64,000 bases of DNA, taken from the NCBI GenBank assembly GCA_964016885.1, contig OZ024742.1:75206001-75270000 (forward strand), written 5' to 3'. This document shows positions 14,111 to 61,134 of this stretch, one piece after another. Position 1 is the stretch's first letter, and every line of letters starts with the position of its first letter. This DNA comes from Eledone cirrhosa. Taxonomy: Eukaryota. The translations under genes were made by a program, and so were the position numbers. A model generated the notes under the pieces. It searched no databases and was not told the DNA's origin. It saw nothing but the letters and a program-made list of their open reading frames with translations.

Positions 14111-15933
14111 CGAAGGAAATGTGGTAAGGAACCAGGTGGACCATAACGCACCAAAGTACTCAATACTTGAGGTAGTAGAGTGGGTAATAGGAACCAGTAA
14201 GACCCCGACAGCTGAGCTCAAGCCGTTTTGACGGCTAATTCTGGACTAAATGAAAATTTATCCTGGTATTTAAATAGCCGATCTTCTCAAGGGGTAATTC
14301 CATATATGGTCAAAGTGATTGTCAAAAATCAGTAGTAATTCTGTGGTTGCAAATTAGTAGGGGAGATGGTGGCTAAACCTGCCAGTAGGAGAAAGAGGGG
14401 AAGGGGTGGAGTAGACCCAATCAAGCGTTGGTAGTGCCAGCTACAGCTGGGCATGAGGTCAAAGAAGATACAGGGGAGGGGGAGGGGGAGGAAGTCGGAA
14501 CGGTAGGTAGAACAATGGGGGGTAGAAATATATAGGAAAAAAAATACTGAGAGTGAAGAAAAGCAAATAAGTGTAAAGAAAAAAGTAAAGTAAATTAAAT
14601 TCTACGACCTAGGTCTCAGGCTATTGTTAGGCTAGAATAAAATAAAGAAAGAAAGAAAGAAGTAAAGAAAAAAATAAATAAAGAAATAACGAAATAAGTA
14701 AAAGAACTAGGTGGGACGGATTAGGCAAGGACCCTTTTAAGAGGTATAAGTACGTAAATGATACGGTGACGGGTCAACAAAAGGGGCCAAAATACTAAAG
14801 AGACTACCACGAAATAAACAATAAAGGTTTCCATCCCGGGCCAGCAACGACCCAGTGCAGCAAAGTGAACTTGTACGAGATAATAATTCTGAGTCCCGAG
14901 AAAAATATATACTAATGCTAACTTTAAAAGATCTAAAACAAGCTACATGAAAGTTCGTACGAAATAAAGGTAGAATACGGAGAAATAAATTCAGAATCCA
15001 CCCCGCCCAGAAGAAAAGCGAAGCAAGAAATACTGAAACGAAAAAATAAGGCATAAGTGCCACTAAGAAATATAGAGGGCACAGAGAATAGTGGGAGCGG
15101 TCGGAAAAAGGGGGCAAGTATCTGGGGTCTAAGCCAACTGCTATAAAGGGCGGAGTCCGCCAAATCTATCATAGACTAGGGGAGGGGTGGTGGGGGTACT
15201 AAGGCTACATGGGGCCAAAGGGCAGCCTCGGGTGGGCGATAAAAGACGCCGACAAAGGAGAAGAACTGGGGTAGAAGGACTAAGGAGAGAGGGGGGAAGG
15301 AAATAAAGGAAGCGATAAAAGAATACAAAGAAGATCTTACGTCTTCCTTGGCAAGCAGGGGTTACCCATTGCAAAATCGGCAAGTGGGGTGTTATAGCCC
15401 TAGTCTACCCCCCCGGGTCATTATGGGGATTGAGGGCGAGGTAAGTCCTACGCAATCTATGTTTACATGCAGTAACCAGTTCATCTTTCTTGTTTAGGAG
15501 TTGGTCCGTCGAAAACAGCATTTGTAAAGTTTCCTCCGAGCATAAATTGCACGGACGGCGTCCTCCCTTCACTCTCAGTATTTTTTTTCCTATATATTTC
15601 TACCCCCCATTGTTCTACCTACCGTTCCGACTTCCTCCCCCTCCCCCTCCCCTGTATCTTCTTTGACCTCATGCCCAGCTGTAGCTGGCACTACCAACGC
15701 TTGATTGGGTCTACTCCACCCCCTCCCCTCTTTCTCCTACTGGCAGGTTTAGCCACCATCTCCCCTACTAATTTGCAACCACAGAATTACTACTGATTTT
15801 TGACAATCACTTTGACCATATATGGAATTACCCCTTGAGAAGATCGGCTATTTAAATACCAGGATAAATTTTCATTTAGTCCAGAATTAGCCGTCGAAAC
15901 GGCTTGAGCTCAGCTGTCGGGGTCTTACTGGTT

Positions 15934-15938
<5 letters not shown>
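14110..15938 (-). mobile_element. 5'-truncated Nematis-like PLE 3' end with inverted terminal duplication
   Basis: Minus 15563-15410 translates GRRPCNLCSEETLQMLFSTDQLLNKKDELVTACKHR (GIY-YIG C-terminus; missed by the ORF track); inverted arms 14187-14558 and 15567-15938; HHR in each arm; (TA)n on both sides. Confidence 0.85.
15831..15922 (+). ncRNA. Hammerhead ribozyme, U3-A8 variant with extended stem II (mirror copy 14203-14294 has a core mutation)
   Basis: cccc-TTGAGAA-gatcggcta...tagccgtc-GAAA-cggcttgagctcagctg-TC-gggg. Confidence 0.8.
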
Positions 15939-15970
<32 letters not shown>

Positions 15971-15972
<2 letters not shown>

Positions 15973-16684
15973 AAAGATTTGAATGGATACAGTTTAGTTG
16001 AAAGGAATTTATTGACACGTGTTTCTATAACAGTTACATAACCTGAAAACAGCTACTATCTACAAAGTATTAGTTATGCAGACATTCAATATTTCAATGT
16101 TATTATTTACGGTCATTTCATCAGAATAATATTACTGAGGACCTGTTTGGTTTTTATAGAGAATATTTGGAGGGAGGGGTGAAGTAGTTAGAAGAATAGT
16201 TGAGGGAGTGGTTTTTTGATAGCAGTGAGAATTTTTGGTGGCAGTGAGTAATTAGATTCCCATCTGTTGTTTTGACATTTTTATAGAATATATTATTGGT
16301 TATTTTTCTAAATCTATAGAAGGATTAGAGATAGTAAAGCTATGCGTGGTTGGTTTTGTGTTTGCACTTAATTCACATCCAGACTTAAATTTTTCTTTCA
16401 AGTGTACGTATCCTTTCACCCACGCATTCACACACAAACATATTTGCACACCTCTACAAAATACATATACTCACATTCACATAGTAACATGTTCATACTT
16501 ACATACATATACACATGCATACATATATATATATACACACATGTATTCATGTACATACATACGCGTTCATGTGTATACATTTTTATACTCAACTTATCTT
16601 TATATACACACGTATAGACACACACATATATACATACATACTCTAGTCTATGTGTATATATATACATATACATATATATCTATT

Positions 16685-16716
<32 letters not shown>

Positions 16717-18931
16717 AGCACTTTAATACATGAATACACTTACATCTAACTATACACATCAAACATATATATATATTTACTTATTTATATACATTTTCAC
16801 ATATATATACATACTTATGGTCGCTTTTAGACACATTCATTATCGCATTTTTTCACCTATTCTCATCTGCATATCTTTCCATTATTAGTGTGGTAATTTG
16901 AGGTTATTAATATACATATATATGTTGAGAAGAGATTGTTTTTATATTTTTCTAACTAGATTGAGGTTTATATAGTTGGGGGGATGTCCCTCTTTTATGT
17001 AATATTCGGCTTGTAGTGGGGGAAAAGGGTTTTAGTTCGGTGACGGCAGAATAATGTTCGTTCAATTCTGTTATTCAGCAATTTCTTCTTGTGTGTGATT
17101 TTGTAATAAATCTCAAGATTACAAAATTTGCAGAAATTTTGGCTCCTGGCAAAGCTTTGGGTTTTAGCTAATTTCTCCCATTTTAGGGTAAACTTTTGAT
17201 CGCTATCCCTGAGCGTCCAAGCTTTTTCTGCTAAAGTTGTTACATTTCTTTGACTCTGGTGTTTTATTGAGTAAGGATGCCTATATAATCGAGATTTAAA
17301 CGATGTTGCCGTTGATCCCACGTAATACCACTCGTTGCCTCCGGATTTAATGGTACACTTATAAATAATATTTTTTTCCAGGCAGTTATTGCCGAGGGTC
17401 AGTTGTCAGGATAGGTGCAGTTACAGTTGTGTACATTGGGTTTTCTCTGGAGTAGTATTGCGGACGAACTTAGGTGTGGTTTATTTATGTTCTGTAGTGT
17501 ATTGTCTACTGTTTTTTTTGTGTTCTTTGTACTTAAGTTTTTAGTGTTTTCGTTTAACCTTCTAGTATTGATCTTTTTTATGTGTTGTTCAAGGTTTAAC
17601 GCTGTAGAGTATGACAGTCTTATAGTGGTAGGGTTTAGGATTTTGTGGTATTTGTGTGATGTAGGAAAATGTCTCTTAATTATTTTAAAGAAGAGTACTG
17701 GTAAATTTGTACTAATGGAACTATTGTATTCGGGGTTATACCATAAGTACTCTTTGCATGGCTTTCTATTAGTTTTGTTTGTTGGTTTACAGGTGTGCAT
17801 ACTATGGTAGTAAGTGTGGTTTGGTGTTGTGTTATTATATCTACCTATGTGGGATTTATTTTGTGTGTTTTGATTGTTCCCATCTATATACTCTATTTTG
17901 TTGAGGTAGCCTGCTTTACTAAGGGCGTTATCGTAGTACTCGGCGTGTTCCTTAAATACTTGTATGTTAGAAGATAGACCCGAGATTCTAAGGGAAATAT
18001 TTTTAGGGATAGATTTAATTATAGAGATGGGGTGGTTAGACCCAACATTTACGTATTTGAGATTTTCATTCAATTTATGAAACGGTTTAATCAGACCAGA
18101 GTTTAAATTGAGTGTGACATCCAGGAAGTTAACTACTTTAAGGTTGTATTCATATGTTATAGTTAGTCCTATTTCGAGTAGTAGTTTTCTTATATCTTTG
18201 CGTAGTTTTTTCTAGTTTTTGGTTATTTAGGTTTTTAACTAGGAGGAGAACATCGTCGCGGTATATTCCGCCGTGTAGATTGCTGAATTTTTCCTGGAGT
18301 TTAAATCCGGAGGCAACGAGTGGTATTACGTGGGATCAACGGCAACATCGTTTAAATCTCGATTATATAGGCATTCTTACTCAATAAAACATCAGAGCCA
18401 AAGAAATGTAACAACTTTAGCAGAAAAAGCTTGGACGCTCAGGGATAGCGATCAAAAGTTTACCCTAAAATGGGAGAAATTAGCTAAAACCCAAAGCTTT
18501 TCCAGGAGCCAAAATTTCTGAAAATCGTGTAATCTTGAGATTTATTACATAATCACACACAAGAAGAAATTGCTGAATAACAGAATTGAACGAACATTAT
18601 TCTGCCGTCACCGAACTAAAACCCTTTTTTCTCACTACAAGCCGAATATTACATAAAAGAGGGAAATCCCCCAACTATATAAACCTCAATCTAGTTAGAA
18701 AAATATAAAAACAATCTCTTCTCAACATATATATGTATATTAATAACCTCAAATTACCACACTAATAATGGAAAGGTATGCTGATGAGAATAGGTGAAAA
18801 AATGCGATAATGAATGTGTCTAAAAGCGACCATAAGTATGTATATATATGTGAAAATGTATATAAATAAGTAAATATATATATATGTTTGATGTATATAG
18901 TTAGATGTAAGTGTATTCATGTATTAAAGTG

Positions 18932-19008
<77 letters not shown>

Positions 19009-19848
19009 ATATATATGTATATATATATATAGATATATATGTATATGTATATATATACACATAGACTAGAGTATGTATGTATATATGTGTGTGTCTATAC
19101 GTGTGTATATAAAGATAAGTTGAGTATAAAAATGTATACACATGAACGCGTATGTATGTACATGAATACATGTGTGTATATATATATGTATGCATGTGTA
19201 TATGTATGTAAGTATGAACATGTTACTATGTGAATGTGAGTATATGTATTTTGTAGAGGTGTGCAAATATGTTTGTGTGTGAATGCGTGGGTGAAAGGAT
19301 ACGTACACTTGAAAGAAAAATTTAAGTCTGAATGTGAATTAAGTGCAAACACAAAACCAACCACGCATATCTTTACTATCTCTAATCCTTCTATAGATTT
19401 AGAAAAATAACCAATAATATATTCTATAAAAATGTCAAAACAACAGATGGGAATCTAATTACTCACTGCCACCAAAAATTCTCACTGCTATCAAAAAACC
19501 ATTCCCTCAACTATTCTTCTAACTACTTCACCCCTCCCTCCAAATATTCTCTATAAAAACCAAACAGGTCCTCAGTAATATTATTCTGATGAAATGACCG
19601 TAAATAATAACATTGAAATATTGAATGTCTGCATAACTAATACTTTGTAGATAGTAGCTGTTTTCAGGTTATGTAACTGTTATAGAAACATGTGTCAATA
19701 AATTCCTTTCAACTAAACTGTATCCATTCAAATCTTTCTATTTTTCTCCGGATTACTTTTGGAACTACAACTGGAACCGTCGAGCAAACTCTACGTGAGC
19801 TGTCAATCTACTGTGTGTAATATTTATATTACAACACAACGGAAAATA

Positions 19849-23865: not shown

Positions 23866-25263
23866 GAGTTTGTGAGTACTCTGCGTCGTGGATAGTTTTA
23901 ACGTTCGGCTTTGTTTGACTCAACAAGATGTTTCCATAGTTATGCAGCGAGTTCGCGGTAATTCCTATGCAGGTTATACTTGGAGTAATAATAGTGAATG
24001 AATGAAGAGTAACATCGTTGGCTGTACAATAAGGGGCTTTATTTCAAGTACTGATAATTGTTTCATTGATCAGGTGAGTCTAGAGGTCGCTAATCGCTTG
24101 AAGTTGCGTCACTCGATCTCCAATACATTATTTACCTCTGATCAACACATCAGAGTACGTAGATATAAAAATAATTCACTCGAGGCAAGACATATATAGA
24201 AGAATAGCGTATAATTAAAACAATAACATCAATAATAAAACATATATGGTAAATAGGTAGAGAAGTTACAGATGAAAAAGGAAAAAGTAAAATATAAGAT
24301 AGGATACATTAGAAAAGTAAGAAAATAAGATAATGGAAATATAAAGACATAAATAAGGATAAGTGAGAGCATGTAAGTACAGAGTATGTTTGTGGAGGTG
24401 GTGAGTAAGTGTTCTTATAAGGATTCCTTGGTGGGTTTAGTGCTAGCATGAAAAAACAGATTCGAAATATACATAGATACGTGTAGAGACTCTGATGTAG
24501 TGACAGATAAAAGAAAAAAGAGAAAGCAATACATTAGAGATTAATTGGGGGATATAAGAATGAGATTTAAGGGCTAGGGGTGGATTATGAAGGGAGGCTT
24601 GACAAACGTGTGTTGCTGATTGTTCTATCTTAATGGGGTTGATGCTGTTTTAGGGGAAAAGGGTGAAAGAGATGTTCAGAGATTTATGATCCAGTGACTA
24701 GTTGGTCGTTTGACAGCTAATAGCAGTGTGATGGTGACTATTCTATATACTAAAATCTAGGTGGTTCAGTTCTAATTTTGGGATTGCTGGTTCAAATCAT
24801 GGTGGTTTGAAGGTTGTGAATCTGGTAGCTATTTTATGACTACAGAAAATTGATCTTTCTATTTTGCTGTTAAGCAGCATCCCATCGTCCTTAAAATATT
24901 GAGTAGTTCTAAATTACAAAGTCCGCAGTGGGACATTCCGTTGCTGTAGGCCCTTGCTACCGATAATTTTGACCAGCTAATCTTATATTCTAGGTTTTGG
25001 ATTTTAAGCTGCCAGATTTTATTAGCGAGCGTCGTAGAGTTCTCCAGTCTACGGTTCTTTATGGAGTGTCTGTGGACGTACCACCTTTTCTTGAACTCCC
25101 CTGATGTGTTGATCAGAGGTAAATAATGTATTGGAGATCGAGTGACACAACTTCAAGCAAATAGCGACCTCTAGGTTCATCTGATCAATGAATCAATTGT
25201 CAGTACTTGAAATAAAGCCCCTTATTGTACAGCCAACCATGTTACTCTTCATTCTTTCACTAT
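23866..25263 (-). mobile_element. 5'-truncated Nematis-like PLE 3' end with inverted terminal duplication (third family)
   Basis: Minus 25100-24800 translates EFKKRWYVHRHSIKNRRLENSTTLANKIWQLK...CGLCNLE...LLNSKIERSIFCSHK (GIY-YIG C-half; missed by the ORF track); inverted arms 23991-24153 and 25101-25263. Confidence 0.85.
24048..24158 (-). ncRNA. Atypical hammerhead (CUGAUGU core, about 80-nt stem II domain); mirror at 25101-25206
   Basis: gtact-CTGATGT-gttgatcag...ctgatcaat-GAAA-caatta-TC-agtac; the two copies together give the consensus GAAAcaattgTC. Confidence 0.6.
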
Positions 25264-43049: not shown

Positions 43050-45799
43050 CCCGGTACACGTTTTCACTCCTCATCCTTAACCCATCTGAAGAAGGATATT
43101 TTTAAGCGATGTGTTGATGAGCTCGTGGGGTGCAGTTATGATGTGGTAGAGCTCCATGAGGCAAAGATCGCACTTCCCCTTGAAGTTGTACGGTGCAACC
43201 CTGCCGACAATATCCCAGTGCGCGGAGAAGCTGATGTTTAAGTCTTTTAATGATGTGCTGTAGTCCGCGAGCGAAGTAGAGTGTCTTAATTTCTTATTTG
43301 TGAAAGAGAAGAGATGTGTTCGAAATCTAATTTTTAACGGGCCGGAGGTAGCCCCTATATAATGTTTAACGCTATTGTGGCTAGTTACAGTGCACCTATA
43401 TATAACCCTATCAGTCAAACAGTATCCTCTAAAGGGGCAGCGTCCCCTGTCGCGGCAGTTGCAATTTCTGTCGCGGTTCCTTCCACTTCCCACGGTTAGG
43501 CTACCATTGTTGCTATCTACGTTGTTATCTACGCTCCTGCACCTCTCGTTAGCACCATTACAACCCACAGTGCGCGGGGTGGTACGATTCTTATTCCGCA
43601 CGTCATGTCCTGCATGTTCCCCAGTCATGTCGCGGTTATGCTGGTTGCGTCTGTAGAAGCCGTTGCCAGGACTATTGGATGCTGCTAGGGAGTTGTTAAG
43701 GACGATATAATTATTGTCAGGTTTAGGTGCGTCTGTGCTAAGGTGCTGTGTCTTGGTGATCTTACTGTGGTTCGTTGTTCCTATGATGTCTGCTAGGCTA
43801 GGAGTAGTAGAGAAGGATATTTTTATATTGTTCCCATTAAGAATGTTTCTATACCTATGGTTGGGCGGGAAGTAATTCTCTAAGGCTTCGAAGAATATCC
43901 GGGGTATGTTGGAGGCCACACTCCAAGAGTAGAGGGGGTGGAACCATAGGACGTTACGGTGGCGATTACGTGTCCTTGTACGTTTGCTACGGGTGGTTCC
44001 ATCGAGGTGACCGTTCTTATGTATGTTAATGCGCTGTAGCCCATTACGTGCCCCTTTCACTTAATGCTCGGGTGCACTCTTCTTCCTTCTTCCATGTTTA
44101 TGTACAGGAAGATGTTGGTTGGAAAGCGTTGGTAGTAGCCCGTTGCCTTTGTTGATCTTATAGTAGGGGAATAATTCGAGTAGGCTATAGTGGTCACTGT
44201 CACCGAGGTCGTGATCTTTATTGTGTGGTAAGTTACCTATACCATCGCCAGTATAATTAACGTTGCGGCCGTGTTCCTTAGTGCGATTATCTATACTATT
44301 ATATCCGACTCCTACGAAGTCGCCGCGTGATCGGTTATAGGCATGGCTTACTATAACGTTCGTTTTATGAGGGGCGGTGGTTTCTAGAGCTAGCGTTAGG
44401 GATATAGGAAATTCCTCGATTAAAGCCGGCGCTTATCAAGGCCCTATTGTAGTAATCTGCCGCTTGGTTGAAGATATCCTAATTGGCGGAGAGCCCCGAG
44501 ATTCTATGTGAGATGCTATATACAATGGAGTTGAGAGTCTGCTTAGTGTGGTTGGAGGCATAATTAATATAAGAAAGGCACTCTCCAGGCTTATGGTATG
44601 GCTTGTGTATGCCCGTACTCATCCCCAGGGTCACCTCCAGGAAGTTGACAAACTGGTGGTTGAGGTCCATAGTTACGGATAGGCCGTATGACTTGAAGAA
44701 CCTGTGTATATGTTTGTTAAGGTTCTTTAGTCTACGAGGCTATGGTTCCTAACGCTAAACAGGGCGTCGTCCCTATATACACCTACTTGTAGGGCCGGTA
44801 TATTGTTCCTAAGCTTATGGGGGAGGTATATCCTGACCAGGTCAGTTGCTTGCGCTGAGTCACTGGACCCCATCGTGACATCGAAGTTATCAGGACGTTT
44901 GGTTCTGGTCCAGTGGGAGCCTTCGAACTGGATAATGGTTCTACGCGCCGCTAAAACTATGTCTATTTCTTTTTTAGTGAGGCTAGTGTTAGATTTAGCT
45001 AATATGAGTGCCTTATTTAAGAGTATGGGGGAGATAGAGGCGTAGTAACTATCTATGTCTAACTGGATGAACTTCAGGGTGATCTATCCGGCAACTCTGT
45101 GAACCAATTTATGACCTGGTCGGTGTTTCCCCAGAGGAAGACCTTAGCCTTTCTATTTAGCTCCAGTAGTACTCTACTGAGGATCACTTTACTAATCTTA
45201 CCTATATCAGAGGAGCTTTCATTAAAGTTACATTTGTGATCCTTAAGAGAGCATCTAGGCGTCAGAGGGACGTACGAGTTAGTGTACTTTTCCATTACTA
45301 AGCTGGTAACTATATCATTCCCTACTCTATTTATGTCATTTAGGGTATTAAAGGGTGTCTTTTTGTAGTCTTTGTGTAGTTCCTTATAAATGAATTTGTT
45401 ATACTTGCTCGCGTCCATCTTGTACAGCTTCTTGGTTTTGTCGGAGGTGACGAAGAGGTGCGGGTCATTCTTGATCTTAGTTATGAGTGTATCAAGGAAG
45501 GTTAAGAATGGATTACTGCATCGATGTTTCTTTCTGAACTTAACGTTTTTGATCATTTTCAGCAGGTCCTCCTCAAAGGAGTCTAGTAAGGTGTTGTGCG
45601 GTGGGTTTCGGTATGTTTTGAAGCCATACCTCTCTTTAGGTTCAGGAAGGTTACGGGTGTTCTTATCCAGGTGGTAGGCCTTCTATCTGACTCTCCGTAT
45701 AAACGAGTTAGAAGCGTCTATAAGCAGTTTGAGGTGGGGTTTTCTGCTGAGTAAGGGGATACATTTGAGAAAAATGGGTAACCTCTGGTTCTCCAACAT
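43050..45799 (-). pseudogene. PLE RT plus GIY-YIG polyprotein, disrupted
   Basis: Collinear ORF pieces 45074-45556, 44479-44670 and 43077-44060, with stops and frameshifts. Confidence 0.88.
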
Positions 45800-46062
45800 T
45801 ATGGCAAATAAAGTGAGATGCTCGACAAAAGGAGCACGGTAATAAAGTATTTACGTATCGAGAGAGAGAAAAAACGAAGGATAGGTGATACATGTAGTTA
45901 TTTGCCAAATAGCGTATGCAAAAGGTGCTCAATACTAATGCTGGCAGTATTAAATATTAGAAGTGTTAATATTTAGTGGGCCAGAGAGTTAGCAGAGCGT
46001 AAGCAGGTGGAAAAGTAAGAAATCGGAGAACAGACCGTTAAAACATGTTTATTTAAAACAGC

Positions 46063-46099
46063 ACCTACGTACGTTTCGCCCAGTTGGGCTTGTCAAGGG
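46063..46099 (-). ncRNA. Minimal hammerhead ribozyme, tandem copy
   Basis: Core identical to 42644-42680. Confidence 0.82.
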
Positions 46100-47850
46100 G
46101 ATAAATAACCAAAAGTGTTCCTTACATTGCTCGGAAAGTGTTTTGGGGGTTAAGTTCACGTCGTAATTCATTCCTCGCAAAAAAAGCGTGTTTTGATTTT
46201 GCAGTAGGTCATGGGAGGTAACTCTGGCCGGTGTTAGGGCAGTCTTTCACGGACAAATTTTTTATCCGTTACAAGATGTGGTTACAACCTTACCATTGTC
46301 AATACGCACAGGGTCAGGTAATCAACGCTTATTTTGAGACGTTTGTTTTTCCGCACCTGCCGGCCTGGGTCGTTTGAGGCGGGGTCAGCGATGCATGGTT
46401 AGATTCCCGGGTGTTTTTTTGCAGCGCCTGCCCGCCTGGGTGTTAAAGCTTATTGCAGGGAGACCCGGTACACGTTTTCACTCCTCATCCTTAACCCATC
46501 TGAAGAAGGATATTTTTAAGCGATGTGTACAACTTGTCGTCGTTTCAGCTCTGCTGTTGATGAGCTCGTGGGGGTGCAGTTATGATGTGGTAGAGCTCCA
46601 TGAGGCAAAGATCGCACTTCCCCTTGAAGTTGTACGGTGCAGCCCTGCCGACAATATCCCAGTGCCGGGAGAAGCTGATATTTAAGTCTTTTAATGATGT
46701 GATGTAGTCCGCGAGCGAAGTGGAGTGTCTTAATTTCTTATTTGTGAAAGAGTGGAGATGTGTTCGAATTCTAATTTTTAACGGGCCGGAGGTAGCCCCT
46801 ATATAATGTTTAACGCTATTGTGGCTAGTTACAGTGCACCTATATATAACCCTCTCAGTCAAACAGTATCCTCTATCGGAGCAGCGTCCCCTGTCGCGGC
46901 AGTTGCAATTTCTGTCGCGGTTCCTTCCTACGGTTAGGCTATTATTGTTGCTATCTACGTTTTTATCTACGCCCCCGCACCTGTCGTTAGAGCCATTACA
47001 ACCCACAGTGCGCGGGGTCGTACGATTCTTATTCCGCACGTCATGTCCTGCATGTTCCCCAGTCATGTCGCAGTTATGCTGGTTGCGTCAATAGAGGCTG
47101 TTGCCAGCACTGTTGGATGCTACTAGGGAGTTGTTAAGGCCGATATAATTATTGTCAGGTGTAGGTGCGTCTGTGCTAAGGTGCTGTGTCTTGGTGATCT
47201 TACTGTGGTTCGTTGTTCCTATGATGTCTGCTAGGATAGGAGTAGTATAGAAGGATATTTTTATATTGTTCCCATTAAGAATGTTTCTATACCTATGGTT
47301 GGGCGGGAAGTTCTTCTCTAAGGCTTCGAAGAATATCCGGGGTATGTTGGAGGCCACACTCCGAGAGAAGAGGGGTTGAACCATAGGATGTTACGGTGGC
47401 GATTACGTGTCCTTGTACGTTTGCTACGGGTGGTTCCATTAAGGTGATCGTTCTTATGTATGTTAATGCGCTGTACCCGGTTACGTGCCCTTTTCACTTT
47501 ATGCTCGGGCGCACTCTTCTTCCTTCTTCCATGTTTATGTACAGGAAGATGTTGGTTGCAAGGCGTTGGTAGTAGGCCGTCGCCTTTGTTGATTTTATAG
47601 TAGGGGAATAATTCAAGTAGGCTTCAGTGGTCACTGTCACCGAGGTCGTGATCTTTATTGTGTGGTAAGTTACCTATACCATCGCCAGTGTAATTAACGT
47701 TGCGGCCGTGTTCCTTAGTGCGATTATCTATACTATTATATCCGACTCCTACGAAGTGGCCGTGTGATCGGTTATAGGCATGGCTTACTGTAACATTCGT
47801 TTTATGAGGGGGGTGGTATATATATATATACATATTTATATATACATATA

Positions 47851-50297
<2,447 letters not shown>

Positions 50298-58313: not shown

Positions 58314-58459
<146 letters not shown>

Positions 58460-58935
58460 ATATTTCGTTTCTGAATTTGTTTAGCAAGATTCTTTATCTG
58501 AAATCGTGTGTTGGAACCGATATTGTTATACTTTGGGAGGGTCATGTTGCCAATAAGAAACACACGCACCAGTTGCTTTCACTTCAAATAGATAAATGAA
58601 CACAAACACACACAGACACCCGGATGTGGCGCATGCGCAAACTGAGCACACAACACACACACAGAAACAAAATGGCGTAGGATAGAAGAAAGGAAAGGCA
58701 CAGAAACAAAGAAAGGAATCCCCAGTCACTGATGAGGTCACAGAGTGTGTGACGAAAGGACTATGACTATATATAAACAACTATCTGGTTGTGGAACCAA
58801 CCAACCAACCAGAAATTTATAAGTTTGTAAATTTGTAAATTTATAAATTTATAAATATATAATAAATTGAAGTGAAAGCAACTGGTGCGTGTGTTTCTTA
58901 TTGGCAACATGACCCTCCCAAAGTATAACAATATA
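58460..58935 (+). mobile_element. Small non-coding HHR element with 67-bp inverted duplication, between (TA)n tracts
   Basis: 58521-58587 and 58867-58933 are inverted; HHR at 58724-58768; related to 60600-61070. Confidence 0.78.
58724..58768 (+). ncRNA. Type-I hammerhead ribozyme
   Basis: agtca-CTGATGA-g-gtcaca-gagtg-tgtgac-GAAA-g-ga-c-TA-tgact; 5-bp stem I and 6-bp stem II. Confidence 0.85.
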
Positions 58936-58950
58936 TATAATACATATATG

Positions 58951-59004
<54 letters not shown>

Positions 59005-59009
59005 TATAT

Positions 59010-59947
59010 ATGAAAGACGTAAAATAAGAAAATTATAAAAATTAACTTACTTACTAAAATTTCACTCCAACTAATTAGTTTCTGAAAGGAAATAAACATA
59101 GTTTCCGAAGAAACGTACGGAGAAGCCTTTCGTCATCAGGGAAGTCTATTCTCAGCTAAGTTTCCAGGCAATGCGTGGACACAGGGAACTTATACAAAAT
59201 AATTCAGTGGATGGAAAAAAGCAAAGCGAGGACTAAGTCCCAAGCCATTGAAAAAATCACTGCCTACTGCGTCGGTGGCAAATTCAAAAGAATCAATCAC
59301 GTGACATCGAGGTTAATCAGTGAGGAGTGATTTGTTAAGAAGACAGCAGCTGAACTGTTACTATGAACTATAGTAGCAGTTTTGGCCAATTTTGGCTCGA
59401 CAAAATAATTTGGAGGTAATTATAAAGAATTAGTATATCTACTAACATATATATACATATGCATACCTATGCCAGCAAATATATAGGTTTTGTCTTAGTA
59501 ACTTTGTGGTTCAATGCATGATTAACCTCGATGGCACGTGATTGATTCTTTTGAATTTGCCACCGACGCAGTAGGCAGTGATTTTTTTAATGGCTTGGAA
59601 CTTAGTGATCGCTTTGCTTTTTTCCATCCACTGAATTATTTTTGTATAAGTTCCCTGTGTCCACGCATTGCCTGGAAACTTAGCTGAGAATAGACTTCCC
59701 TGATGACGAAAGGCTTCTCCGTACGTTTCTTCGGAAACTATGTTTATTCCCTTTCAGAAACTAATTAGTTGGAGTGAAATTTTAGTAAGTAAGTTAATTT
59801 TTATAATTTTCTTATTTTACGTCTTTCATATTATTGTTCTGCATCCTCATGCATTGAACCACAAAGTTACTAAGACAAAACCTATATATTTGCTGGCATA
59901 GGTATGCATCTGTATATATATGTTAGTAGATATACTAATTCTTTATA
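59010..59947. mobile_element. Retrozyme-like element: two opposed, circularly permuted passes through a 530-bp non-coding unit
   Basis: 59010-59319 and 59519-59830 are inverted; 59421-59521 and 59847-59947 are inverted; HHRs at 59065-59143(-) and 59696-59774(+); (TA)n on both sides. Confidence 0.82.
59696..59774 (+). ncRNA. Hammerhead ribozyme with extended stem II (mirror at 59065-59143)
   Basis: ttcc-CTGATGA-cgaaagg...cctttca-GAAA-ctaattag-TT-ggag; palindromic stem III actaattagt. Confidence 0.83.
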
Positions 59948-60020
59948 TATACATATATATGTATATATATATGTATATATATATATATGTATATATATGT
60001 GTATACATATATATATATGT

Positions 60021-60155
<135 letters not shown>

Positions 60156-60488
60156 TATATATATATGTATATATGTATGTATATATCTATATTTATATAA
60201 TATACATATATTATATATGTATATATATATTCATATCATATACATATATCATATATGTATTTAACTCTCTCTGTATATGTATGTGTGTGTGTAATAGAAA
60301 GATAAAGAACAAAATGTGAAATTCAAATATATTTAATGGAACTAAACATTGCTACCTTTAGTTAGAAACTCAAATCTTTCTGATAAATATGTTGCGGGAA
60401 TATAATGCATTTTACTTTTATTGTTATCTTTTTGACAGATTATATTTATTTTATATTTTTAGATGATGTGATTATAGGACATGAAACA

Positions 60489-60596: not shown

Positions 60597-60796
60597 GAAA
60601 TCACCCAGCAGATAGGCAAATCATAGAGGCAAGTGAAATAGAACTTAGAAGGCCAAAGCTAAACAGAAAATATTGAATGGAATAACAACAACACCCAAAC
60701 AAACAATACTGACCTAAGAGAAAAATAAATAAATAAATAAACAGATTAAATAAAGATGGCGTAGATATACAAAACAACAGGAGGAACATAATAGCA

Positions 60797-60836
60797 CCAC
60801 TGATGATGTTGCAGATATGCAACGAAAGAACTTTGT
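60797..60836 (+). ncRNA. Hammerhead ribozyme, diverged relative of 58724-58768, within a repeat at about 60600-61070
   Basis: ca-CTGATGA-t-gttgca-gata-tgcaac-GAAA-g-aa-c-TT-tg; the downstream tgaccctcccaagtataacaata...cacacgatttca is shared with 58480-58545(-) and 58910-58933. Confidence 0.75.
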
Positions 60837-61134
60837 TAGACTATATATATGTGTTTATGTCTATATTTTTCACCGTTAGTCAGTCAATGGTAATCATTGA
60901 GGACCGAATGAATTAACTGATATAAAAGATACAGAAGCGAAAACCAACCAAACAGTGTGTGTGTTCTGTTATTAATTCTGGCAATATTATTACAACAATA
61001 TGACCCTCCCAAGTATAACAATATTTGTTTCGACACACGATTTCATATCAAAAACCTCGCAAAACAAATATATATATATATATATTTATATATATACTTA
61101 TATATATATACATATATATATATATACACATATA

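What the first reader, a model, noticed from the sequence alone, without database searches (positions are those of the whole stretch)
59010..59947. Interlocked inverted repeats reveal a circularly permuted 530-nt ribozyme unit
Seen: the minus strand reads B(59521-59421)-X(59420-59320)-A(59319-59010), and the plus strand reads A(59519-59830)-y(16 nt)-B(59847-59947), with a 3-nt tga overlap at the junction. A precedes B on one strand and follows it on the other. The simplest source is a circular or tandem template A-y-B-X of about 530 nt with one HHR and no ORF. Inference: two cDNAs primed at different points of a circular or multimeric retrozyme RNA and joined head-to-head in (TA)n. High arm identity suggests a young insertion.
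Basis: partly seen in the sequence, partly recalled or inferred. Interest (0 to 1): 0.78.

Follow-up and report, generated by a model that had tools for sequence, protein, structure and literature searches.

The report
Two-armed ribozyme retroelement insertion
This is one copy of a non-coding 530-base repeat family with a predicted hammerhead ribozyme, present thousands of times in this animal genome, whose back-to-back insertions almost always pair one short end with one long end, likely because a borrowed Penelope-type enzyme copies one RNA from two start sites at once.

Summary
The locus is a head-to-head insertion of an ORF-less 530-nt tandem unit in (TA)n. Natural A-y-B-X tandems exist elsewhere (L003, L007), and no copy examined runs into an ORF. 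The family has 2907 and 1262 exact matches to its two 3' ends. The type I hammerhead shows compensatory changes but is atypical and untested. 3' ends are fixed at unit 313 (short) or about 429 (116-nt tail); 5' ends vary. Of 108 two-armed insertions with both ends at these sites, 107 pair short with tail. The two arms come from the same template lineage (2.4% apart against 10% to other loci). In 41 of 107 neither arm contains the other, which excludes fold-back. An autonomous Neptune-type element in this genome follows the same rule. Verdict: a non-LTR retrozyme, i.e. a non-autonomous Penelope-like element, with the known PLE insertion anatomy. A circular RNA is likely but not shown. No autonomous partner was found by sequence.

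The parts
58931..59009 (.). (TA)n microsatellite, left flank (target)
59008..59520 (-). Left arm, 514 nt: unit 330 to 530, then 1 to 313 (B-X-A); 3' end at the short site, joined to (TA)n
   Evidence: (L001), 97% to the natural L003 unit
59064..59145 (-). Type I hammerhead motif of the left arm; predicted cut after the GUU at 59071-59069
   Evidence: coordinates derived from the arm alignment
59320..59420 (-). X, unit 430-530; links B to A in tandem copies; not an ORF lead-in
59519..59521 (.). Head-to-head (5'-5') junction with 2-3 nt microhomology
   Evidence: family-wide, 50 of 107 junctions overlap by 1-9 nt
59519..59947 (+). Right arm, 429 nt: unit 1 to 429 (A-y-B); 3' end at the tail site, joined to (TA)n
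   Evidence: (L001), 98% to the L003 unit
59694..59775 (+). Type I hammerhead: stem I 59694-59699 with 59771-59775; core CUGAUGA 59700-59706; extra C 59707; stem II 59708-59713 with 59750-59755; extra A 59756; GAAA 59757-59760; palindromic stem III 59759-59770; predicted cut after 59770 (GUU)
59832..59947 (+). 116-nt tail between the two fixed 3' ends (unit 314-429)
59944..60260 (.). (TA)n microsatellite, right flank (target)

Best explanation
This is one insertion of an ORF-less 530-nt tandem unit with a predicted hammerhead (a non-LTR retrozyme, i.e. a non-autonomous Penelope-like element), likely written into (TA)n by a borrowed Penelope-type RT/GIY-YIG protein that would prime both target strands on a more-than-unit-length RNA, one at each of two fixed start sites. 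SHOWN: tandem unit, no ORF, two fixed 3' ends, short+tail pairing, same-lineage arms, (TA)n flanks, variable 5' ends joined head-to-head. INFERRED: (1) a tandem source copy is transcribed; (2) the hammerhead, probably as a dimer through its palindromic stem III, cuts unit to unit and the monomer closes into a circle (about 0.55; otherwise the template is an uncut or partly cut multimer); (3) a PLE protein dimer nicks both strands of (TA)n, and each 3' end primes at one site (unit 313 or 429, both ending in pyrimidines plus UA that can pair with TA); (4) both cDNAs come from the same RNA molecule (about 0.6), run through the ribozyme site, stop early, and are joined at their far ends by microhomology or short fills. 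The helper is most likely a Neptune-type PLE (about 0.6). The window copy has under one unit per arm, so it cannot give a cut-to-cut monomer and is likely a dead end.
For: Seamless 530-nt tandems. Longest stop-free stretch 93 aa. 3' ends: 164 short, 152 tail, 30 other among 346 arms not cut by a locus edge; 281 of 316 short or tail ends are followed directly by TA or CT repeats. Pairing: 107 short+tail, 1 tail+tail, 0 short+short of 108 (p 3e-31 against 0.5). Arms median 2.4% apart against 10.1% median to other loci, with 111 shared rare alleles, 68 pairs; successive laps 2.9% against 9.1%, 69 comparisons. Neither arm contains the other in 41 of 107. 150 of 190 end-anchored arms cross the predicted cut and 40 cross it twice or more; 5' ends are enriched at unit 171-285 (89 of 188 against 28% expected). 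Hammerhead: 97% of cells paired, 13 compensatory cells, 0 of 500 shuffles as high; the unguided consensus fold recovers the three-way junction. An autonomous Neptune-type element (775-aa frame with RT and GIY-YIG hits) has the same two-end anatomy in (TA)n, with 10 of 10 classifiable ORF-selected pairs short+tail. Published PLE anatomy matches (PMC8557442, PMC3846280), and two internal RT start sites bounding the tail were shown in vitro (PMC11167929).
Against: No autonomous element with a related terminal repeat was found. The hammerhead has an extra A between C11.1 and G12 and U at position 17, and the free-energy minimum is not the active fold (-15.8 against -11.9 kcal/mol), so it may not cut. 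Three of 69 lap comparisons are discordant at many common alleles (L028, L090, L123), which a single circle does not explain. 23 of 134 pairs have at least one non-canonical 3' end and 3 were cut by a locus edge; one is tail+tail. [quoted passage not shown] 8 of 9 Xenopus retrozyme dimers did not cleave in vitro (bioRxiv 10.64898/2026.07.22.740005). Gene conversion between inverted arms could also make them alike.
Confidence: 0.82

Rival explanations
1. Same class, but no circle: templates are linear read-through multimers of genomic tandems, uncut or partly cut, and the ribozyme is incidental to insertion.
For: Chimeric laps in 3 of 69 comparisons. 5' ends pile up just 3' of the predicted cut (unit 253-285, 5.8 per kb against 1.2-2.2 in most other bins), as for run-off from a cut linear end. 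The ribozyme is dispensable for the anole PLE in vitro (PMC11167929). The core is atypical.
Against: Linear copying with 5' truncation can only shorten a tandem, yet homogeneous laps persist in subfamilies 10-20% apart, which needs a monomer-to-multimer step (inference). The ribozyme stems keep compensatory changes. The cut-to-cut monomer folds stably as a circle (z -3.8, 40 shuffles; weak evidence).
Confidence: 0.35
2. The unit is only the terminal repeat (pLTR plus tail) of an autonomous PLE whose ORF-bearing copies were not sampled; the locus is an ordinary 5'-truncated PLE insertion.
For: The anatomy is identical to truncated autonomous PLEs (PMC8557442). Only 218 loci of several thousand were mapped.
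Against: After the tail site the sequence continues into X and back into A, not into an ORF, wherever it continues. No long frame is joined to any arm. A GIY-YIG C-terminal motif upstream of the ribozyme gave 3 hits, none examined as ORF-linked except by pattern text and masking.
Confidence: 0.1
3. The inverted arm arises by self-priming or fold-back of one cDNA (model of PMC3846280), not by a second priming on RNA.
For: 23 of 107 pairs have 5' ends within 25 nt of each other (13.6 expected, p 0.005); in 66 of 107 one arm could lie within the other.
Against: In 41 of 107 pairs, the window's included, neither arm contains the other. Fold-back does not explain why the second arm ends at the other fixed site. 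Close 5' ends also follow if both RTs run off one RNA end.
Confidence: 0.07
4. Satellite DNA or a DNA transposon (MITE/foldback) with terminal inverted repeats, or an assembly artefact.
For: The locus has long inverted repeats and lies in microsatellites.
Against: Arms are of unequal and variable length with fixed 3' and free 5' ends; 87 to 98 end classes cannot be TIRs because the two ends differ; single-armed copies are common (46 of 190 end-anchored arms unpaired); arrays stay under 3 units in the sample; arms differ by 2%, unlike an assembly fold-back.
Confidence: 0.02

Closest known systems
Metazoan non-LTR retrozymes (Cervera and de la Pena 2020, PMC7229834; Li et al. 2026, bioRxiv 10.64898/2026.07.22.740005)
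   Same: Non-coding tandem unit with one type I hammerhead per unit, AT-rich, dispersed mono-, di- and trimers, proposed to be mobilised by PLEs through a circle.
   Different: 530 nt against 170-400 nt in the invertebrates studied (51-972 in the vertebrate survey). PLE-type rather than canonical hammerhead. Here the insertions carry the full PLE signature (inverted arm, tail, microsatellite target), which the parts of those papers that I read do not report. No RNA evidence here.
EN+ Penelope-like elements, Neptune type (Craig et al. 2021, PMC8557442; Arkhipova et al. 2013, PMC3846280)
   Same: 5' truncation, partial tandems, an inverted 5'-truncated copy head-to-head, a tail at one end only, microsatellite targets, hammerhead in the terminal repeat.
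   Different: No RT/GIY-YIG ORF. Tail 116 nt instead of 30-40. No sequence likeness to the terminal repeats of the two Neptune-type families examined.
Poseidon PAc in vitro (Frangieh et al. 2024, PMC11167929)
   Same: Two RT start sites internal to the RNA and downstream of the hammerhead define the tail; both target strands are cut and extended; the protein is predicted to be a dimer; AT-rich target.
   Different: In vitro the start site did not depend on the strand; in this genome the two arms of one insertion use different sites in 107 of 108 cases.
PLE-type minimal hammerheads (Cervera and de la Pena 2014, PMC4209133)
   Same: Extra base between A9 and G10.1, G10.1-C11.1, 6-bp helix II, 5-bp helix I, palindromic helix III, opposite-strand pairs 100-700 bp apart.
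   Different: A further conserved A between C11.1 and G12, a 36-nt loop II with its own covarying hairpin, a 12-nt palindrome, and GUU at the cut site (GUU also occurs in a second Neptune-type family here).
Non-autonomous Chlamys elements such as MRC1 (PMC8557442)
   Same: ORF-less PLE derivatives with multicopy head-to-tail insertions.
   Different: Those resemble their autonomous partner at the 3' end and mostly lack hammerheads; here no partner was found by sequence.

Membership tests
non-LTR retrozyme | Small head-to-tail tandem unit | tested here: met
   530-nt period in L003, L007, L023, L028, L035; the window copy itself has under one unit per arm
non-LTR retrozyme | One type I hammerhead motif per unit | tested here: met
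   Core invariant or nearly so and stems covary; atypical extra A and U17; no Rfam hit
non-LTR retrozyme | No protein coding | tested here: met
   Longest stop-free stretch 93 aa in six frames of the repeated unit
non-LTR retrozyme | Self-cleavage of the RNA | not testable with these tools
   Indirect only: 5' ends enriched just 3' of the predicted cut
non-LTR retrozyme | Circular monomeric RNA in vivo | not testable with these tools
non-LTR retrozyme | No LTR, PBS or PPT | not tested
   No LTR-type layout was seen in any mapped copy; PBS and PPT were not searched for
autonomous Penelope-like element | ORF with RT and GIY-YIG endonuclease | tested here: not met
   None in the unit or joined to arms
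PLE-mobilised (non-autonomous) element | Fixed 3' ends, variable 5' truncation, partial tandems | tested here: met
PLE-mobilised (non-autonomous) element | Inverted 5'-truncated copy joined head-to-head | tested here: met
   134 pairs in 218 loci; 144 of 190 end-anchored arms have a partner
PLE-mobilised (non-autonomous) element | Tail at one end only | tested here: met
   107 of 108; 116 nt rather than 30-40
PLE-mobilised (non-autonomous) element | Microsatellite target bias | tested here: met
   262 TA and 19 CT of 316 canonical ends; about half of the loci were selected by TA-ending patterns, but the loci selected by A or X show the same
PLE-mobilised (non-autonomous) element | Sequence homology to the pLTR of an autonomous PLE | tested here: inconclusive
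   Not found in two Neptune-type families or by motif patterns; other PLE families of the genome were not examined
PLE-mobilised (non-autonomous) element | Target-site duplication | not tested
   Cannot be read inside (TA)n

The most novel reading that the evidence does not exclude
Penelope-type integration is a coordinated twin-priming reaction: a protein dimer on one circular RNA primes the two target strands at two different fixed sites, one per subunit. One step would then explain tandem pLTRs, the inverted arm and the one-sided tail, and this 530-nt circle, with an undescribed hammerhead variant, would be a minimal natural substrate and direct proof that retrozymes move by PLE machinery.
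Probability: 0.35. Interest if true: 0.68.

Novelty: new member of a known kind. Interest (0 to 1): 0.42.

Why it matters
How Penelope-like elements make their tandem and inverted repeats and their one-sided tail is stated as open in PMC8557442, and the link between animal retrozymes and PLEs has rested on co-occurrence and pLTR trees. This family gives a short, ORF-free, high-copy case in which the insertion products can be counted. The near-strict short+tail pairing, the shared template lineage of the two arms and the non-nested arms constrain the mechanism and can be tested in the existing in vitro system. The element class and its anatomy are already known, so the locus itself is ordinary.

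Tried and rejected
Rfam at gathering score and at E up to 10: no hammerhead family hit, only TA-repeat noise. Single-sequence fold of the ribozyme region: z -0.4, uninformative. My first candidate cut site, using the upstream GAAAC at 59733, was dropped because no stem I forms. Partner search: same stem III with shorter stem II gave 33 hits, the 30 fetched all deletion variants of the family; a recalled GIY-YIG end motif upstream of the ribozyme gave 3 hits; same core with another loop III gave 5 hits, all family variants, control 6; a family profile against masked flanks and the window gave 1 residual family fragment; two Neptune-type families showed no likeness apart from neighbouring family insertions. 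A 6.4-kb apparent pair (L121) was two insertions around a LINE-like frame. A Pfam accession I recalled is not in the library. One search translated the wrong stretch. Sequencing runs: no RNA holder listed; the three contig sets of unknown kind only show that the family and its variants are present. The scan's earlier notes held nothing.

Full report
Observation. Self-comparison of 59010-59947 gives two inverted pairs: A (304/311) and B (100/101); X is single. The order is B-X-A on minus and A-y-B on plus, with a 2-3 nt overlap, between two (TA)n tracts. The window is G000:C3:75206001-75270000 of a 3.0-Gb genome, rich in microsatellites and retrotransposon fragments.

The unit. A search with A scored 40 of 2420 candidates, a search with X 40 of 1524. 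L003 holds an unbroken A-y-B-X-A-y-B-X-A with a period of 530 nt. I used its natural monomer (L003:1501-2030) as the coordinate system: A 1-312, B 329-429, X 430-530. Its longest stop-free stretch is 93 aa. Exact patterns for the two 3' ends followed by TA match 2907 and 1262 times, with 0 for the reversed controls; these are lower bounds. Copies range from about 77% to 98% identity to L003 (5th-95th percentile). Wherever an arm continues past unit 429 it enters X and then A. Long frames in the loci belong to neighbouring LINEs, PLEs and DNA transposons, none in register with an arm.

The ribozyme. The plus copy has stem I (59694-59699 with 59771-59775), CUGAUGA, an extra C, a 6-bp stem II, a 36-nt loop II, an extra A, GAAA, a perfect 12-nt palindrome as stem III, and GUU at 59768-59770. 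Among 152 ribozyme regions, six stem II variants keep all six pairs. In 18 diverse copies chosen from these 152, 97% of cells pair, 13 cells show changes on both sides (0 of 500 shuffles as high; slid controls 29-56%), and pair 20-70 takes four types; related sequences can beat shuffles, so the pair-type counts (439 and 147 of 500, not significant) should be read with it. The unguided consensus fold recovers the three-way junction and a covarying hairpin in loop II. This fits PLE-type hammerheads (PMC4209133: extra base after A9, long helix II, short helix I, palindromic helix III, dimer activity). The extra A before G12 is not in that description, U17 can pair with A14, and the single-molecule minimum is not the active fold. 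Activity is therefore predicted only.

Insertion anatomy. 218 loci gave 349 distinct arms and 134 head-to-head pairs. Of 346 arms not cut by a locus edge, 164 end at unit 303-316 (153 at 313), 152 at 418-436 (121 at 429; 18 at 422, the form that enters (CT)n), and 30 elsewhere. Pairs: 107 short+tail, 1 tail+tail (L123), 0 short+short, 22 with one other end, 1 with two, 3 at an edge. Loci came from best hits, the first pattern hits on C1 and ribozyme patterns. Anchoring on one end does not fix the other end, so the pairing is not a selection effect. A few events may be counted twice through segmental duplicates (L053/L054). Junctions: 50 overlap by 1-9 nt, 9 are blunt, 45 have inserts, 3 overlap by more.

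Template. In 68 pairs with at least 80 comparable sites the arms are a median 2.4% apart, against 10.1% to the median other locus and 2.2% to the nearest; they share 111 rare alleles. Successive laps within an arm behave alike (69 comparisons, 2.9% against 9.1%), except L028, L090 and L123. Both arms thus come from one RNA or one source lineage; gene conversion and waves of subfamilies are not excluded. In 41 of 107 pairs neither arm lies within the other, so simple fold-back fails there; 23 of 107 have 5' ends within 25 nt (13.6 expected, p 0.005). Of 190 end-anchored arms, 150 cross the predicted cut and 40 cross it at least twice, so a cut linear monomer cannot be the template. 5' ends are enriched at unit 171-285 (89 of 188, 28% expected), with peaks at 201-230 and 253-285. 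The first peak may partly reflect alignment drop-off in the variable loop II, and the second lies in AT-rich sequence; unit 341-430 is also somewhat raised. The longest arms are about 1.5 kb, some limited by locus size.

The helper. A protein search with a window fragment found a young family with many identical 775-aa frames carrying GIY-YIG (E 4e-6, above cut-off) and RT (E 5e-6, just under cut-off) hits and a CxxC linker, which I read as Neptune type from the clade description in PMC8557442 (no tree was built). It has its own hammerhead-like motif, a short end and a 64-68-nt tail in (TA)n. Of its ORF-selected loci, 10 of 10 classifiable pairs are short+tail (2 more had an unclassified end); of the first 14 short ends on C1, 13 have a tail partner; one possible tail+tail pair 3.3 kb apart (L294) stays ambiguous. 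It shares no detectable sequence with the unit, nor does a second Neptune-type family. The partner is unidentified; Poseidon-type and other families were not examined.

Mechanism. Shown: unit, ends, pairing, lineage, target. Inferred: transcription of a tandem source; ribozyme cutting and circle formation (about 0.55); nicking of both strands of (TA)n by a PLE dimer; priming of one strand at 313 and the other at 429 on one RNA (about 0.6); early stops; end joining. A circle is favoured because linear copying with truncation can only shorten tandems, while homogeneous tandems persist in all subfamilies (inference).

Comparison and novelty. The class (non-LTR retrozyme, non-autonomous PLE), the circle model, the inverted copy and the one-sided tail are all in print. 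I did not find a count of the pairing or a same-template test in searches, which cover an open-access library only. Papers seen: bioRxiv 10.64898/2026.07.22.740005 parts 1-3 of 5; PMC8557442 passages and section 6; PMC11167929 parts 1-2 of 4; PMC7229834 parts 2-3 of 6 and passages; PMC4209133 parts 1-2 of 4; PMC3846280 passages. No supplements were read; they, a 2017 paper on PLE hammerhead variants (recalled, not seen) and repeat libraries such as Repbase or Dfam (not available) may already hold this family or this ribozyme variant. Hammerhead numbering and the weaker cutting at U17 are from my own knowledge. Verdict: new member of a known kind, interest 0.42.

Noticed in passing
window 58459-58933 and 60790-61068: Another small hammerhead family (cores at 58729 and 60800, plus strand). 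The first copy has 65-nt inverted arms with an extension of about 60 nt on the left arm only, in (TA)n; related motifs occur in L176, L207, L209.
   Followed up: partly
window 47900-48124: Palindromic head-to-head pair of hammerhead-core copies (48032 minus, 48061 plus); the left arm is longer and ends in (TA)n, the right ends in (CT)n. Poseidon-like frames lie at 43077-47087.
   Followed up: partly
L254 (G000:C1:399392500-399400000) and relatives: Very young Neptune-type PLE family: identical 775-aa RT-GIY-YIG frames, an upstream second frame, and a hammerhead-like motif with the U3-A8 core variant read by eye; 1054 short and 6894 tail ends. A good source of intact protein for tests.
   Followed up: partly
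L270-L293: Second Neptune-type family with a compact hammerhead ending in GUU, showing that U17 is not peculiar to the 530-nt unit.
   Followed up: partly
window 14190-15935, 15972-19738, 23994-25260, 48327-50251, 1975-2481: Further long inverted repeats (94-99% identical), some around PLE-like frames; probably other PLE insertions.
   Followed up: no
unit 14-24 and 267-277 (window 59532-59542, 59785-59795): A conserved CACGTG box, also present in the Neptune-type terminal repeat, and two conserved GTAAGT donor-like motifs just 3' of the predicted cut; possible internal promoter and intron signals, untested.
   Followed up: no
L064, L065, L071, L074, L080, L084 and others: A subfamily whose tail ends at unit 422 and enters (CT)n instead of (TA)n, while its short end still enters (TA)n; suggests priming by short pairing with the target.
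   Followed up: partly
L028, L090, L123: Arms whose successive laps belong to different subfamilies: template switching or mixed source tandems.
   Followed up: partly
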